Of a stretch of DNA of 64,000 bases, positions 2,587-47,869 are shown piece after piece. The stretch is from assembly GCF_988242995.1 (NCBI RefSeq), contig NZ_OZ547043.1; one strand, given 5' to 3'. The first letter of the stretch is position 1. Each line of letters opens with the position of its first letter. The position numbers and the translations under genes were made by a program. Below the pieces are notes generated by a model. It did not search any database, was not told the origin of the DNA, and was given only the letters and a program-made list of their open reading frames with translations.

Positions 2587-4065
2587 ATGTCGAAAAAATA
2601 CATCATAGGGATTGATGGTGGAAGTCAGAGCACAAAAGTGGTGATGTACGATCTGGAAGGTAATGTGGTTTGCGAAGGCAAAGGCTTATTGCAGCCGATG
2701 CACACGCCAGATGCCGATACCGCAGAACATCCTGACGACGATTTATGGGCATCATTATGCTTTGCCGGTCACGATTTGATGAGTCAGTTTGCCGGAAATA
2801 AAGAAGATATTGTCGGTATTGGTCTGGGATCCATCCGTTGCTGCCGTGCGTTATTGAAAGCCGATGGCACGCCAGCTGCGCCGTTGATTAGCTGGCAGGA
2901 TGCACGCGTTACACGCCCTTACGAACATACGAATCCTGACGTGGCATATGTCACCTCTTTTTCAGGTTATCTGACGCATCGCTTAACCGGCGAGTTTAAA
3001 GACAATATCGCCAACTATTTTGGTCAGTGGCCGGTGGATTATAAGACCTGGGCATGGAGTGAAGATGCCGCAGTCATGGAGAAGTTTAATATCCCCCGTC
3101 ATATGCTGTTTGATGTGCAAATGCCGGGCACTGTTCTTGGGCATATCACTCCTCAAGCCGCGCTGGCGACACATTTCCCGGCTGGGCTGCCGGTTGTTTG
3201 TACCACCAGTGATAAACCGGTTGAAGCACTGGGAGCTGGGTTACTGGATGATGAAACGGCGGTAATTTCTCTTGGCACTTACATCGCGCTGATGATGAAC
3301 GGCAAAGCACTGCCGAAAGATCCGCTGGCGTACTGGCCGATTATGTCTTCTATTCCGCAAACATTGCTGTATGAAGGTTACGGTATCCGCAAAGGCATGT
3401 GGACGGTGAGCTGGCTACGCGACATGCTAGGCGAGTCGTTAATTCAGGATGCCAAAGCACAGGATCTTTCACCGGAAGATTTACTCAACAAAAAAGCGTC
3501 TTGTGTGCCGCCAGGCTGTAATGGTCTGATGACGGTGCTGGACTGGCTGACCAATCCGTGGGAACCGTACAAACGCGGGATTATGATCGGCTTTGATTCC
3601 AGCATGGATTACGCATGGATATATCGTTCGATACTGGAAAGCGTGGCGCTGACGCTGAAGAACAATTTCGACAATATGTGTAATGAAATGAATCACTTTG
3701 CAAAGCATGTGATCATTACTGGCGGCGGTTCGAACAGCGATCTGTTTATGCAGATTTTTGCCGACGTGTTCAACCTTCCGGCACGCCGTAACGCCATTAA
3801 TGGTTGTGCAAGCCTGGGGGCAGCGATTAATACGGCGGTAGGTCTGGGGCTATACCCGGATTACGCAACGGCTGTCGACAAAATGGTTCGCGTGAAAGAT
3901 ATCTTTATGCCTGTTGAGAACAATGCCAAACGCTACGACGCGATGAATAAAGGCATTTTCAAGGAGTTAACCAAACATACTGATGTAATCCTGAAAAAAT
4001 CGTATGAAGTGATGCATGGGGAATTGGGGAATGCGGATTCGATCCAGAGCTGGTCGAATGCGTAA
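2587..4065 (+). CDS. ygcE: FGGY-family carbohydrate kinase
   Basis: 492-aa ORF; N-terminal IGIDGGSQSTK sugar-kinase fold motif; RBS aggaga 7 nt upstream. Confidence 0.85.
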   Translation: MSKKYIIGIDGGSQSTKVVMYDLEGNVVCEGKGLLQPMHTPDADTAEHPDDDLWASLCFAGHDLMSQFAGNKEDIVGIGLGSIRCCRALLKADGTPAAPLISWQDARVTRPYEHTNPDVAYVTSFSGYLTHRLTGEFKDNIANYFGQWPVDYKTWAWSEDAAVMEKFNIPRHMLFDVQMPGTVLGHITPQAALATHFPAGLPVVCTTSDKPVEALGAGLLDDETAVISLGTYIALMMNGKALPKDPLAYWPIMSSIPQTLLYEGYGIRKGMWTVSWLRDMLGESLIQDAKAQDLSPEDLLNKKASCVPPGCNGLMTVLDWLTNPWEPYKRGIMIGFDSSMDYAWIYRSILESVALTLKNNFDNMCNEMNHFAKHVIITGGGSNSDLFMQIFADVFNLPARRNAINGCASLGAAINTAVGLGLYPDYATAVDKMVRVKDIFMPVENNAKRYDAMNKGIFKELTKHTDVILKKSYEVMHGELGNADSIQSWSNA

Positions 4066-24249: not shown

Positions 24250-24293
24250 AAAGCAACCTCAATAAGAAAAACTGCCGCGAAGGATAGCAGGAA

Positions 24294-24660
24294 TAAAAAA
24301 AGGGAGCACTGTATTCACAGTGCTCCCGGTTCGTTTCGCAGCATTCCAGCTACTTTTGTTGCTCCCTGCTCATCCTTGACAACTTTTCCTCTGGCCTTGC
24401 GGCCAATCGTTCATCCTGAACTATTGCTTCCTGCTCACACCACCCCGATGTGATACTTCATCCTGAAGTGTCCCTGGCCTTCCTGACCCACCGAATCATC
24501 CTGACCGGTTCTCATTCTCCATCCTGGAGGTGTCCTTTAACGCGTCCTGCGTCATCCTCTTCGCTTCATCCAGAAGCCTTTCCCTGAAACACCATCCTGG
24601 TGTGTCCTTCAGAAGTGTCATCATCCTGATGTTCACTTCGTTGTCTGACTCCCTGTCGAC
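24294..24660 (-). ncRNA. csrB: CsrB small RNA (CsrA-sequestering), with 3' intrinsic terminator
   Basis: Minus strand begins gtcgacagggagtc and carries many CAGGA(U/A)G repeats (seen as catcctg on the + strand); ends in hairpin gggagcactgtgaatacagtgctccc plus U-run (24294-24327). Confidence 0.9.
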
Positions 24661-41834: not shown

Positions 41835-42752
41835 TTATTGTTCATAACGAAAGCGGAATTTTTCTTGTTCAGCAGCGGCTTTCGCCAGGATCCATTGGCG
41901 AAAGGCGGCTATTTTACCCAGTTCTGCCTGGCTGTCATGACAAACCAGATAAAAAGCGTTTTTACTGACCAGTACATCATTAAACGGGCAAACAAGACGT
42001 CCGGCCTCAATTTCAGATTGCGCCATCACGTTATTTGCCAGCGCCACTCCCTGCCCGTGGATAGCCGCTTGCAGCACCATGGCGCTATGGCTAAAAATTG
42101 GCCCTTGCTGAACGTTGATATGATTTAACCCCAACTGTCGGGTATATGTCTGCCAGTCACGGCGCGACGCATCATGTAATAACGTATGTTTAGCCAGATC
42201 TTCCGGGGTCTTCAAGGGTTTTTCGCCAGTCAGTAGTAACGGCGAACACACCGGCAATAAATACTCGGCGTACAGTTTTTCCACCCGTAGCCCCGGCCAG
42301 TTGCCCCGACCATAAAATATCGCCACATCAACATCATCCGCCAGCTTATCTTCCTGACGATCAACCGCCTGGATTCGAACGTCAATTCCCGGATAAGCTG
42401 AATTAAAGCTGGAAAGTCGCGGAACCAACCAATGAATGGCGAAACTGGGGAGTAAACTGACCGTCAACGCCCCCTTGGCGCTACGGGCCTGGAGTTTACG
42501 CGTCGCTTCGGTTAATTGCGAAAATATCTCTTTGATATCGAGGAAATAGCTTTGACCTTCCTCGGTCAGCAGGAGTGAACGATTACGGCGGCGGAACAGT
42601 TTTAGCCCCAGAAAATCCTCAAGAGACTTGATTTGATGACTTACTGCGGCCTGGGTCACAAAAAGCTCTTCTGCTGCGCGAGTGAAACTTAAATGGCGTG
42701 CTGCGGCATCAAAAACTCGTAAGGCATTTAGCGGTGGTAATCGTTTAGACAT
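41835..42752 (-). CDS. gcvA: LysR-family regulator of the glycine cleavage system
   Basis: 305-aa LysR-type ORF, divergent from gcvB. Confidence 0.9.
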   Translation of the reverse strand: MSKRLPPLNALRVFDAAARHLSFTRAAEELFVTQAAVSHQIKSLEDFLGLKLFRRRNRSLLLTEEGQSYFLDIKEIFSQLTEATRKLQARSAKGALTVSLLPSFAIHWLVPRLSSFNSAYPGIDVRIQAVDRQEDKLADDVDVAIFYGRGNWPGLRVEKLYAEYLLPVCSPLLLTGEKPLKTPEDLAKHTLLHDASRRDWQTYTRQLGLNHINVQQGPIFSHSAMVLQAAIHGQGVALANNVMAQSEIEAGRLVCPFNDVLVSKNAFYLVCHDSQAELGKIAAFRQWILAKAAAEQEKFRFRYEQ

Positions 42753-42880
42753 GGCTTTTAAACTTTGATGTTAAATGAATTTAACAATTAGATCACACTG
42801 TGTAACCTATTAGTTTTTTTAATCTGAGCCATTATAAATTGTCCGTTGAGCTTCTACCAGCAAATACCTATAGTGGCGGC

Positions 42881-43086
42881 ACTTCCTGAGCCGGAACGAA
42901 AAGTTTTATCGGAATGCGTGTTCTGGTGAACTTTTGGCTTACGGTTGTGATGTTGTGTTGTTGTGTTTGCAATTGGTCTGCGATTCAGACCATGGTAGCA
43001 AAGCTACCTTTTTTCACTTCCTGTACATTTACCCTGTCTGTCCATAGTGATTAATGTAGCACCGCCTAATTGCGGTGCTTTTTTTT
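42881..43086 (+). ncRNA. gcvB: GcvB small RNA (Hfq-dependent)
   Basis: Begins acttcctgagccggaacgaaaag, contains the GU-rich gttgtgatgttgtgttgttgtgtttg region and ends in gcaccgcctaattgcggtgc plus U-run. Confidence 0.9.
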
Positions 43087-43102
43087 ACCTTGCGATCGCG
43101 AA

Positions 43103-43330
43103 TTACTGATCCAGTTCGACCATCTCTTTCACGTCAGTACGGTTGATCTGCTGTTTGTTGCCATTAGCGTCTTTATACGAAATCATACCGGTATCGTTAT
43201 CAGTCTGTGGTTTGCCGTCAGAGACGATGGTACGTCCGTCATTGGTGTGCATCACATAGTTCGAACCGGAACAGGCGCTCAGGGCAAAAGTCAGCATACA
43301 GGCAGAAATAATTGCGGCAGTCTTTTTCAT
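43103..43330 (-). CDS. ygdI: Small lipoprotein (DUF903)
   Basis: 75-aa ORF with lipobox LSACSG. Confidence 0.8.
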
Positions 43331-46039: not shown

Positions 46040-46250
46040 TTAAAAAGGGCGAGGTTATCCCTCACCCTAAACGCATAAATGCCTGATGCGCTACGCTTAT
46101 CAGGCCTACATAACTCCTGCAATATTTTGGATTTGCATGATTTGTAGGCCGGATAAGGCGTTCACGCCGCATCCGGCATGAACAACGCGCACTTAGTCAA
46201 TAATCAGGATGTGAGGTTACCCCTCACCCTGTCATATCCGTAAAAACGGC
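46040..46250. repeat. Composite REP cluster flanked by near-identical GGTGAGGG-type hairpin units
   Basis: REP units gcctgatgcgctacgcttatcaggcctaca and gtaggccggataaggcgttcacgccgcatccggca; flanking repeats gaggttatccctcaccct (46052-46069) and gaggttacccctcaccct (46215-46232). Confidence 0.7.

Positions 46251-47571: not shown

Positions 47572-47648
<77 letters not shown>

Positions 47649-47681: not shown

Positions 47682-47758
<77 letters not shown>

Positions 47759-47792: not shown

Positions 47793-47869
<77 letters not shown>

What the first reader, a model, noticed from the sequence alone, without database searches (positions are those of the whole stretch)
42881..43088. gcvB sRNA divergent from gcvA; its terminator abuts convergent ygdI
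A 206-nt Hfq-dependent sRNA with the GU-rich target-binding region, invisible to ORF prediction. Its terminator hairpin ends 15-17 bp before the ygdI stop codon on the opposite strand, so the terminator may act bidirectionally.
Basis: partly seen in the sequence, partly recalled or inferred. Interest (0 to 1): 0.25.

Follow-up and report, generated by a model that had tools for sequence, protein, structure and literature searches.

The report
gcvB small RNA; terminator shared with ygdI
This is the well-known E. coli regulatory small RNA gene gcvB, and its terminator hairpin also marks the end of the oppositely oriented ygdI mRNA in published 3'-end maps, so the finding is correct but ordinary.

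Summary
Window 42881..43086 (+) is gcvB. It matches the whole Rfam GcvB model (199 bits, threshold 42, E 1e-46). It is 206/206 identical to E. coli K-12 gcvB (b4443), lies divergent from gcvA, and has a promoter-like site placed correctly upstream.

The terminator is an 8-bp hairpin at 43058-43079 followed by a T-run to 43086. The gene end lies 16 nt before the ygdI stop codon (43103-43105, minus strand). The foot of the stem lies 23 nt before it.

The bidirectional idea is supported at the level of RNA ends. Two published E. coli K-12 3'-end maps place the main ygdI mRNA 3' end 3-8 nt past the same hairpin on the minus strand (window 43050-43055). It was found in three growth conditions, including two where no full-length GcvB end is listed. 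GcvB and ygdI transcripts therefore overlap by 32-37 nt.

On the ygdI strand the hairpin has no U-tract (3 U in 8). It is therefore not a canonical intrinsic terminator in that direction. Termination at the hairpin cannot be told apart from Rho termination further on followed by trimming back. A strongly C-rich, G-poor stretch, the antisense of the GcvB seed region R1, lies 80-160 nt downstream.

Verdict: already known, low interest.

The parts
41835..42752 (-). gcvA, the LysR-type regulator of the glycine cleavage system, divergent from gcvB
   Evidence: 305-aa ORF. Annotated gcvA in K-12 and ATCC 11775 at the equivalent position. Homologues carry PF00126 and PF03466.
42753..42880 (.). gcvA-gcvB divergent control region. 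It holds the gcvB promoter-like site: -35 TTGAGC at 42846-42851, a 17-nt spacer, and -10 TATAGT at 42869-42874, which ends 6 nt before the first base of GcvB.
   Evidence: Promoter scan. The same TTGAGC/TATAGT or TTGATG/TATAGT site sits in front of GcvB in Serratia and Yersinia. GcvA/GcvR control is taken from the literature and was not tested here.
42881..43086 (+). gcvB small RNA gene, 206 nt
   Evidence: Rfam RF00022, 199 bits, full-length match. 206/206 identical to K-12 b4443. Folding z-score -3.6.
42943..42969 (+). R1, the G/U-rich seed region (GcvB nt 63-89)
   Evidence: Read directly from the sequence. Conserved across 11 genera, with an 8-nt insertion in Enterobacteriaceae. Its role as the main target-pairing region is from the literature.
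42994..43014 (+). Internal stem-loop GGTAGC-AAA-GCTACC followed by T6. It looks like a terminator.
   Evidence: Terminator pattern scan. Weak hairpin, -8.1 kcal/mol, z -1.9. No 3' end is listed here in Adams et al. supplementary file 1.
43015..43057 (+). R2 (CACTTCCTGT...) and the R3/SL4 region of GcvB
   Evidence: Highly conserved columns in the 11-genus alignment. G156, G160 and C162, the R3 bases mutated in PMC9299463, fall at 43036, 43040 and 43042 and match the sequence.
43058..43079 (.). Shared hairpin AGCACCGC-CTAATT-GCGGTGCT. It is the GcvB terminator stem-loop, and its reverse complement lies in the ygdI 3' UTR.
   Evidence: Pattern scan. Folds of both strands give -14 to -15 kcal/mol for the hairpin. 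The stem is invariant in 11 genera. Published 3' ends flank it on both strands.
43080..43086 (+). U-tract of the GcvB intrinsic terminator (8 consecutive T counting 43079)
   Evidence: T8 is invariant in all 11 genera.
43050..43102 (-). ygdI 3' UTR, about 48-53 nt. The published 3' ends fall at window 43054/43055 (Term-seq) and 43050/43051 (TRS). The UTR overlaps gcvB by 32-37 nt.
   Evidence: Adams et al. 2021 supplementary file 1 gives K-12 2942870/2942869 on the minus strand, classed 'primary ygdI, antisense gcvB', in LB OD 0.4, LB OD 2.0 and M63. TRS gives 2942865/2942866. The coordinate offset of 2,899,815 comes.
43103..43330 (-). ygdI, a DUF903 lipoprotein gene convergent with gcvB
   Evidence: ORF. 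Annotation. Orthologues carry PF06004.
42898..42977 (-). C-rich, G-poor stretch on the ygdI strand (the antisense of GcvB SL1/R1). It is a candidate Rho utilisation site for ygdI read-through.
   Evidence: C/G = 24/7 in 78 nt, which is in the top 0.07% of 78-nt windows of the 64-kb window. Its function is inferred, not shown.

Best explanation
The element is gcvB, the Hfq-associated small RNA that represses amino-acid transport and metabolism mRNAs. It acts mainly through its G/U-rich R1 region and is transcribed divergently from gcvA under GcvA/GcvR control. On the + strand its last stem-loop plus U8 is a canonical intrinsic terminator (and, from my own knowledge, the kind of 3' module Hfq binds). 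On the minus strand the same hairpin forms the 3' end of the convergent ygdI mRNA. Ribosomes stop 23 nt before it, and the steady-state ygdI 3' end sits 3-8 nt past it. There is no U-tract in that direction. The hairpin therefore most likely works as a pause or weak termination site on an A/U-rich tail and as a barrier to 3'-to-5' exonucleases. Polymerases that read through would be caught by Rho on the G-poor antisense-R1 stretch. The net effect is to keep ygdI transcription from running antisense through gcvB, over its promoter and into gcvA. Shown here or in published data: the identity, the geometry and the RNA ends on both strands. Inferred: how the minus-strand end is made, and the insulation role.
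For: Identity rests on Rfam GcvB at 199 bits with a full-length match, 206/206 identity to K-12 b4443, the divergent gcvA and a promoter-like site ending 6 nt upstream, and Hfq co-IP enrichment and seed-region roles in the literature. For the + strand terminator, the hairpin is followed by 7 of 8 T and published 3' ends fall at K-12 2942894-2942902. For the minus strand, the primary ygdI 3' end lies at K-12 2942869/70 in three conditions with scores 36,630, 1,164,820 and 441,780, and independently at 2942865/6 by TRS. It is strongest in conditions where no full-length GcvB end is listed, so it is not a mirror artefact of abundant GcvB. The tight convergent arrangement (6-43 nt) is conserved in Salmonella, Kosakonia, Klebsiella, Erwinia, Pantoea, Lonsdalea and one unnamed Enterobacteriaceae genome. 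A rut-like stretch lies downstream on the ygdI strand.
Against: The minus-strand tail ACAUUAAU has only 3 U in 8, and the pattern scan calls no minus-strand terminator. No relative has a U-rich reverse tail. The stem and U8 are just as invariant in Photorhabdus, which lacks ygdI, and in Yersinia and Serratia, where ygdI ends 127 and 279 nt away. Conservation is therefore explained by GcvB's own needs and gives no sign of selection for a second direction. 3'-end maps cannot separate termination from trimming. The published bicyclomycin screen lists no Rho region on the minus strand here (file 2), so the Rho backup is unsupported by data.
Confidence: 0.85

Rival explanations
1. The terminator is strictly unidirectional. 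ygdI transcription runs through the hairpin and is stopped by Rho in the untranslated antisense-gcvB region (rut = antisense of R1). Exonucleases then trim the RNA back to the hairpin, which only protects the end.
For: The ygdI end has the signature Dar and Sorek described for Rho-dependent transcripts: a precise end just after a stable stem-loop that is not followed by U's, with rut sites just downstream. A stretch with C/G 24/7 lies 80-160 nt past the hairpin, in the top 0.07% of the window. Another hairpin-type bidirectional terminator released only 9% of polymerases in one direction of unidirectional single-molecule transcription.
Against: Adams et al. supplementary file 2 (Rho termination regions, with and without bicyclomycin) has no minus-strand entry for ygdI or gcvB. 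That screen uses 800-nt windows, and the downstream window contains gcvA mRNA, so its sensitivity here is poor. The TRS end lies 7-8 nt after the stem, which also fits termination in place.
Confidence: 0.35
2. This is a collision-driven bidirectional terminator of the class described by Ju et al. 2019. Polymerases from gcvB and ygdI pause at the hairpin, meet head-on and are dislodged by trailing polymerases.
For: The units are convergent, their 3' ends overlap by 32-37 nt, and the overlap encodes a hairpin. That matches the description of this class.
Against: The ygdI end is most abundant in LB OD 2.0 and M63, where no full-length GcvB 3' end is listed and where GcvB levels are reported to be low. 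Opposing traffic should be scarce in those conditions. The gcvB side is a strong canonical intrinsic terminator that needs no collision.
Confidence: 0.1
3. The ygdI 3' end is produced by cleavage, for example by RNase III, of a perfect duplex between GcvB and the ygdI 3' UTR.
For: The two RNAs share 32-37 nt of perfect complementarity.
Against: The end persists, and is strongest, where the full-length GcvB end is not listed. An end 3-8 nt past a stable hairpin is explained more simply by the hairpin itself.
Confidence: 0.03

Closest known systems
GcvB small RNA of E. coli K-12 (b4443; Rfam RF00022)
   Same: Every base of the 206-nt gene is the same. So are the divergent gcvA, the convergent ygdI, the 16-nt spacing, the promoter hexamers, R1/R2/R3 and the terminator.
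   Different: Nothing differs within the gene. There are two SNPs in the gcvA-proximal part of the intergenic region, at 42757 and 42800.
Bidirectional terminators between convergent gene pairs (Ju, Li and Liu 2019; for example ynaJ-uspE)
   Same: The transcripts are convergent, and their mapped 3' ends overlap across a hairpin-encoding segment.
   Different: One direction here (gcvB) is a textbook intrinsic terminator with U8. The class is described as not resembling intrinsic terminators. Collision dependence looks unlikely for the ygdI end. I could not check whether gcvB-ygdI is in their list because the paper is not held.
[quoted passage not shown]
   Same: On the ygdI strand there is a precise end just after a stable stem-loop without a U-tract, and a C-rich, G-poor stretch lies downstream.
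   Different: Rho dependence of this end is not shown. The published bicyclomycin screen does not list it.

Membership tests
GcvB RNA (Rfam RF00022) | Covariance-model score at or above the curated gathering score, over the full model | tested here: met
   199 bits against 42, model positions 1-204 of 204, E 1.1e-46.
GcvB RNA (Rfam RF00022) | Located next to gcvA and divergent from it | tested here: met
   The gcvA ORF is at 41835..42752 on the minus strand and gcvB starts at 42881 on the + strand. The same arrangement is seen in 10 other genera.
GcvB RNA (Rfam RF00022) | G/U-rich R1 and conserved R2 (CACUUCCUGU) single-stranded regions | tested here: met
   R1 is at 42943-42969 and R2 begins at 43015. 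The core is invariant or nearly so across 11 genera. In the centroid fold most of R1 is unpaired.
GcvB RNA (Rfam RF00022) | Rho-independent terminator with a long U tail | tested here: met
   8-bp stem with 6 G-C pairs, followed by T-run 43080-43086.
GcvB RNA (Rfam RF00022) | Hfq binding and repression of amino-acid transporter mRNAs | not testable with these tools
   Literature only. Hfq co-IP enriched it 33.5-fold in Salmonella, and the regulon is reviewed in PMC9299463. The sequence is identical to the gene studied.
Intrinsic terminator, ygdI (minus) direction | Stable G+C-rich hairpin | tested here: met
   The hairpin folds at about -15 kcal/mol on the minus strand.
Intrinsic terminator, ygdI (minus) direction | U-tract immediately after the hairpin | tested here: not met
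   The tail is ACAUUAAU, 3 U in 8. The pattern scan gives no minus-strand hit. Tails have 1-3 U in 8 in all 11 genera.
Bidirectional terminator of a convergent pair (Ju et al. 2019) | Convergent transcripts whose 3' ends overlap across a hairpin-encoding segment | tested here: met
   Published ends place GcvB at window 43079-43087 and ygdI at window 43050-43055, with the hairpin at 43058-43079.
Bidirectional terminator of a convergent pair (Ju et al. 2019) | Independence from Rho | tested here: inconclusive
   No minus-strand Rho region is listed here in Adams supplementary file 2. The 800-nt windows include gcvA mRNA, and a rut-like stretch exists.
Bidirectional terminator of a convergent pair (Ju et al. 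2019) | Termination (release of polymerase) rather than RNA processing, enhanced by opposing transcription | not testable with these tools
   This needs in vitro transcription or promoter-knockout experiments. The ygdI end persists where no full-length GcvB end is listed, which argues against a need for collisions.
Hairpin-protected Rho-dependent 3' end (Dar and Sorek 2018) | Bicyclomycin-sensitive read-through, and an end that depends on exonuclease trimming | not testable with these tools
   Only the sequence signature could be checked, and it is met. The paper's supplementary tables are not held.

The most novel reading that the evidence does not exclude
The shared hairpin means every ygdI mRNA carries a 32-37-nt perfect antisense to the 3' terminator module of GcvB (a presumed Hfq-binding module). 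ygdI belongs to a reported sigma-S-controlled set of small proteins, and its 3' end is most abundant in stationary phase and minimal medium. The ygdI 3' UTR could therefore pair with residual GcvB, or interfere with gcvB transcription, and add a cis-antisense layer to the known SroC-driven shut-off of GcvB. Separately, the antisense of the GcvB seed R1 may act as a built-in Rho loading site that insulates gcvB and gcvA from ygdI read-through.
Probability: 0.1. Interest if true: 0.4.

Novelty: already known. Interest (0 to 1): 0.1.

Why it matters
It matters little beyond correct annotation. gcvB is one of the best studied enterobacterial small RNAs, and automated pipelines can omit it. The one point of some use is that the gcvB-ygdI junction is a clean, conserved natural case. 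A single hairpin serves as a canonical intrinsic terminator in one direction and as a U-tract-less 3'-end former in the other. That makes it a convenient test bed for separating true bidirectional termination from Rho termination followed by trimming.

Tried and rejected
- **Genome-collection scan.** I scanned for TTTNCACTTCCTGTA to collect gcvB loci. I reached relatives instead through GcvA homologues and exact-protein look-ups.
- **Ju et al. 2019.** The paper (PMC6814526) is not held, so I could not check whether its list of bidirectional terminators includes gcvB-ygdI.
- **Supplementary tables.** Those of the 2016 RIL-seq paper and of Dar and Sorek 2018 are not held. A RIL-seq-derived table lists the nodes 'gcvB.ygdI.IGR' and 'ygdI.EST5UTR' but says nothing useful about them.
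- **Variation within E. coli.** It is too small to inform on the terminator: 5385 of 5425 genomes are at least 99% identical over 701 nt.
- **Mirror artefact.** I considered that the minus-strand end is a strand artefact of abundant GcvB. I rejected this because the end is strongest where no full-length GcvB end is listed.
- **Internal hairpin at 42994-43014.** I considered it as a real second terminator. Adams supplementary file 1 lists no 3' end there. From memory, the original gcvB paper reported a shorter transcript.

Full report
**What is there.** The window is an E. coli chromosome segment. A 701-nt query around the finding is 100% identical to many complete E. coli genomes and occurs in 5425 of 5426. 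A scan of the whole window against Rfam gives GcvB (RF00022) at 42881..43086 on the + strand. The score is 199 bits against a gathering score of 42, E is 1.1e-46, and all 204 model positions are matched. In K-12 MG1655 the annotated ncRNA gcvB (b4443) occupies 2942696..2942901, between gcvA and ygdI. An alignment from the gcvA start to the ygdI stop shows the window is identical to K-12 over all 206 nt of gcvB and the downstream spacer. There are only two SNPs, both near gcvA, at 42757 and 42800.

**Anatomy.**
- gcvA is at 41835..42752 on the minus strand and is divergent.
- A sigma-70-like site (TTGAGC, 17 nt, TATAGT; 42846..42874) ends 6 nt before the first base of GcvB. The same hexamers precede GcvB in Serratia and Yersinia.
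- The G/U-rich stretch R1 is at 42943..42969, and R2 (CACTTCCTGT) starts at 43015.
- The R3 bases mutated in PMC9299463 (G156, G160, C162) fall on matching bases at 43036, 43040 and 43042.
- The full RNA folds better than all 200 shuffles (z = -3.6).
- The last stem-loop is AGCACCGC-CTAATT-GCGGTGCT at 43058..43079, followed by T's to 43086.
- An internal hairpin followed by T6 at 42994..43014 also looks like a terminator. It is weak, and no 3' end is listed there in Adams supplementary file 1.

The literature read here describes GcvB as about 200 nt, divergent from gcvA, controlled by GcvA/GcvR, induced by glycine, acting mainly through R1, and degraded after pairing with the SroC sponge. It was enriched 33.5-fold in Hfq co-IP in Salmonella, where its neighbours are also gcvA and ygdI.

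**Geometry with ygdI.** ygdI runs from 43330 to 43103 on the minus strand, and its stop codon is at 43103-43105. The gcvB T-run ends at 43086, which leaves 16 nt between them. This matches K-12 (2942901 against 2942918). The foot of the stem is 23 nt from the stop codon.

**Does the terminator work in both directions?** From sequence alone the answer would be no.
- On the minus strand the hairpin folds equally well.
- It is followed there by ACAUUAAUCACU, which has 3 U in the first 8 nt, against 7 of 8 on the + strand.
- The pattern scan reports no minus-strand terminator.

Published experiments say more. I used the offset window = K-12 minus 2,899,815.
- Adams et al. 2021 (PMC7815308, supplementary file 1) list a minus-strand 3' end classed as 'primary' for ygdI and antisense to gcvB. 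It lies at 2942870 in LB OD 0.4 (score 36,630), at 2942869 in LB OD 2.0 (1,164,820) and at 2942870 in M63 glucose (441,780). That is window 43054/43055, 3-4 nt past the hairpin foot.
- An independent method, TRS (PMC10687069), puts the primary ygdI terminus at 2942865/2942866, which is window 43050/43051, 7-8 nt past the stem. It puts the GcvB terminus at 2942900-2942902.

The two transcripts therefore overlap by 32-37 nt centred on the hairpin. The ygdI end is strongest in conditions where no full-length GcvB end is listed and where GcvB is reported to be low. It is thus not a mirror artefact of GcvB, and it does not need opposing gcvB transcription.

**How the ygdI end is made is unresolved.** Two known mechanisms fit.
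- **Termination at the hairpin.** Hairpin-type bidirectional terminators between convergent genes are described as unlike intrinsic terminators and independent of Rho. However, the model example released only 9% of polymerases in one direction of unidirectional transcription and needed collisions. Collisions look unlikely here.
- **Rho termination downstream, then trimming.** Dar and Sorek showed that Rho-terminated transcripts end precisely just after stable stem-loops without U-tracts, with rut sites just downstream. On the ygdI strand the antisense of GcvB SL1/R1 (42977 down to 42898) has 24 C and 7 G in 78 nt, which is in the top 0.07% of such windows in the 64 kb. This is an unavoidable by-product of R1 being G/U-rich, but it would be a good Rho substrate.

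Against the second mechanism, the bicyclomycin screen of Adams et al. lists no minus-strand Rho region here. Its 800-nt windows include gcvA mRNA, so the test is weak. I rate the two routes as roughly equally likely, and they may act together. In either case the hairpin defines the ygdI 3' end. Because gcvA lies on the same strand as ygdI, stopping there keeps ygdI transcription from running antisense through gcvB, over its promoter and into gcvA. That last step is inference.

**Comparison across genera.** I obtained loci through GcvA homologues and exact-protein look-ups, then located GcvB with Rfam.

| Genus | Gap from GcvB 3' end to ygdI stop (nt) |
|---|---|
| Pantoea | 6 |
| Erwinia | 9 |
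| Kosakonia | 13 |
| Salmonella | 15 |
| E. coli | 16 |
| Klebsiella | 16 |
| Lonsdalea | 26 |
| Unnamed Enterobacteriaceae | 43 |
| Yersinia | 127 |
| Serratia | 279 |

- The order csdE-csdA-ygdI-gcvB-gcvA-ygdD-rlmM is kept in all ten genera in the table.
- Photorhabdus has no ygdI.
- The stem GCACCGC/GCGGTGC and T8 are invariant in all eleven genera, the loop varies, and the sequence diverges immediately after the T-run.
- The reverse-strand tail has 1-3 U in 8 everywhere.
- The scan found no separate canonical terminator on the ygdI strand in the longer Yersinia and Serratia gaps.

The close abutment is therefore old and conserved in Enterobacteriaceae and Erwiniaceae. The conservation of the hairpin itself is explained by GcvB, since Photorhabdus keeps it without ygdI. 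There is no sequence sign of selection for reverse-direction termination.

**Verdict.** The observation and the interpretation are both right. The element is a known gene, identical to the K-12 reference, and the dual use of its terminator hairpin is already visible in published 3'-end tables, though I found no paper discussing this pair. Novelty: already known. Interest is low, at 0.1. The most novel reading not excluded is that the ygdI 3' UTR acts as a cis-antisense partner of GcvB in stationary phase, and that antisense-R1 serves as a built-in Rho site. I give it about 10% probability and moderate interest if true.

Noticed in passing
window 24292-24651 (-): Full-length CsrB small RNA, Rfam RF00018, 382.9 bits against a gathering score of 71.
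   Followed up: no
window 47572-47645, 47682-47755, 47793-47866 (+): Three tandem tRNA genes with identical scores, about 110 nt apart. The first one, which is the only one shown as an alignment, has anticodon loop CUCAUAA (CAU).
   Followed up: no
window 46102-46144 (-): Short hit to Rfam ES036 (CssrF) sRNA, 46.5 bits against a gathering score of 37.6. Published tables list a minus-strand 3' end near K-12 2945853-2945855, upstream of tcdA.
   Followed up: no
window about 43319 (+), antisense to ygdI: Adams et al. supplementary file 2 lists a Rho termination region at K-12 2943134 on the + strand (Rho score 10.25, p 2e-71). This suggests that transcription reading through the gcvB terminator, or starting within antisense ygdI, is stopped by Rho before csdA. 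The 800-nt windows make the source ambiguous.
   Followed up: partly
window 42948-42953 (+), inside R1 of gcvB: Published internal GcvB 3' ends at K-12 2942763, 2942765 and 2942768 in M63 (Adams), in the TRS data and in LB OD 2.0 (Adams) respectively. In Adams et al. they are listed in the two conditions where the full-length end is not. They may be decay intermediates.
   Followed up: no
L133 1779-2987 (E. coli OkiPb01677, NZ_AP042483.1): One complete E. coli genome has an IS4-like ISVsa5 element inserted in gcvB. The match to the window breaks at the equivalent of about 42997, which makes it a natural gcvB disruption.
   Followed up: partly
L002 (E. coli ATCC 11775 RefSeq), equivalent of window 42881-43086: The PGAP annotation has no gcvB feature at a locus identical to the window, whereas K-12 carries ncRNA b4443.
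   Followed up: yes
window 42951-42958, alignment A2 columns 85-92: An 8-nt insertion (TGTTGTGT) lengthens R1 in E. coli, Salmonella, Kosakonia, Klebsiella and an unnamed Enterobacteriaceae genome. It is absent from Erwinia, Pantoea, Lonsdalea, Serratia, Yersinia and Photorhabdus.
   Followed up: no
L129 (Photorhabdus) 1947-2501 and 3421-3872: Photorhabdus lacks both ygdI and ygdD at this locus. It keeps GcvB with the same terminator stem and T-run, followed co-directionally by csdA 235 nt downstream.
   Followed up: partly
window 42757 and 42800: These are the only two differences from K-12 between gcvA and ygdI: T for A at 42757 and G for A at 42800. Both lie in the gcvA-proximal part of the divergent control region.
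   Followed up: no
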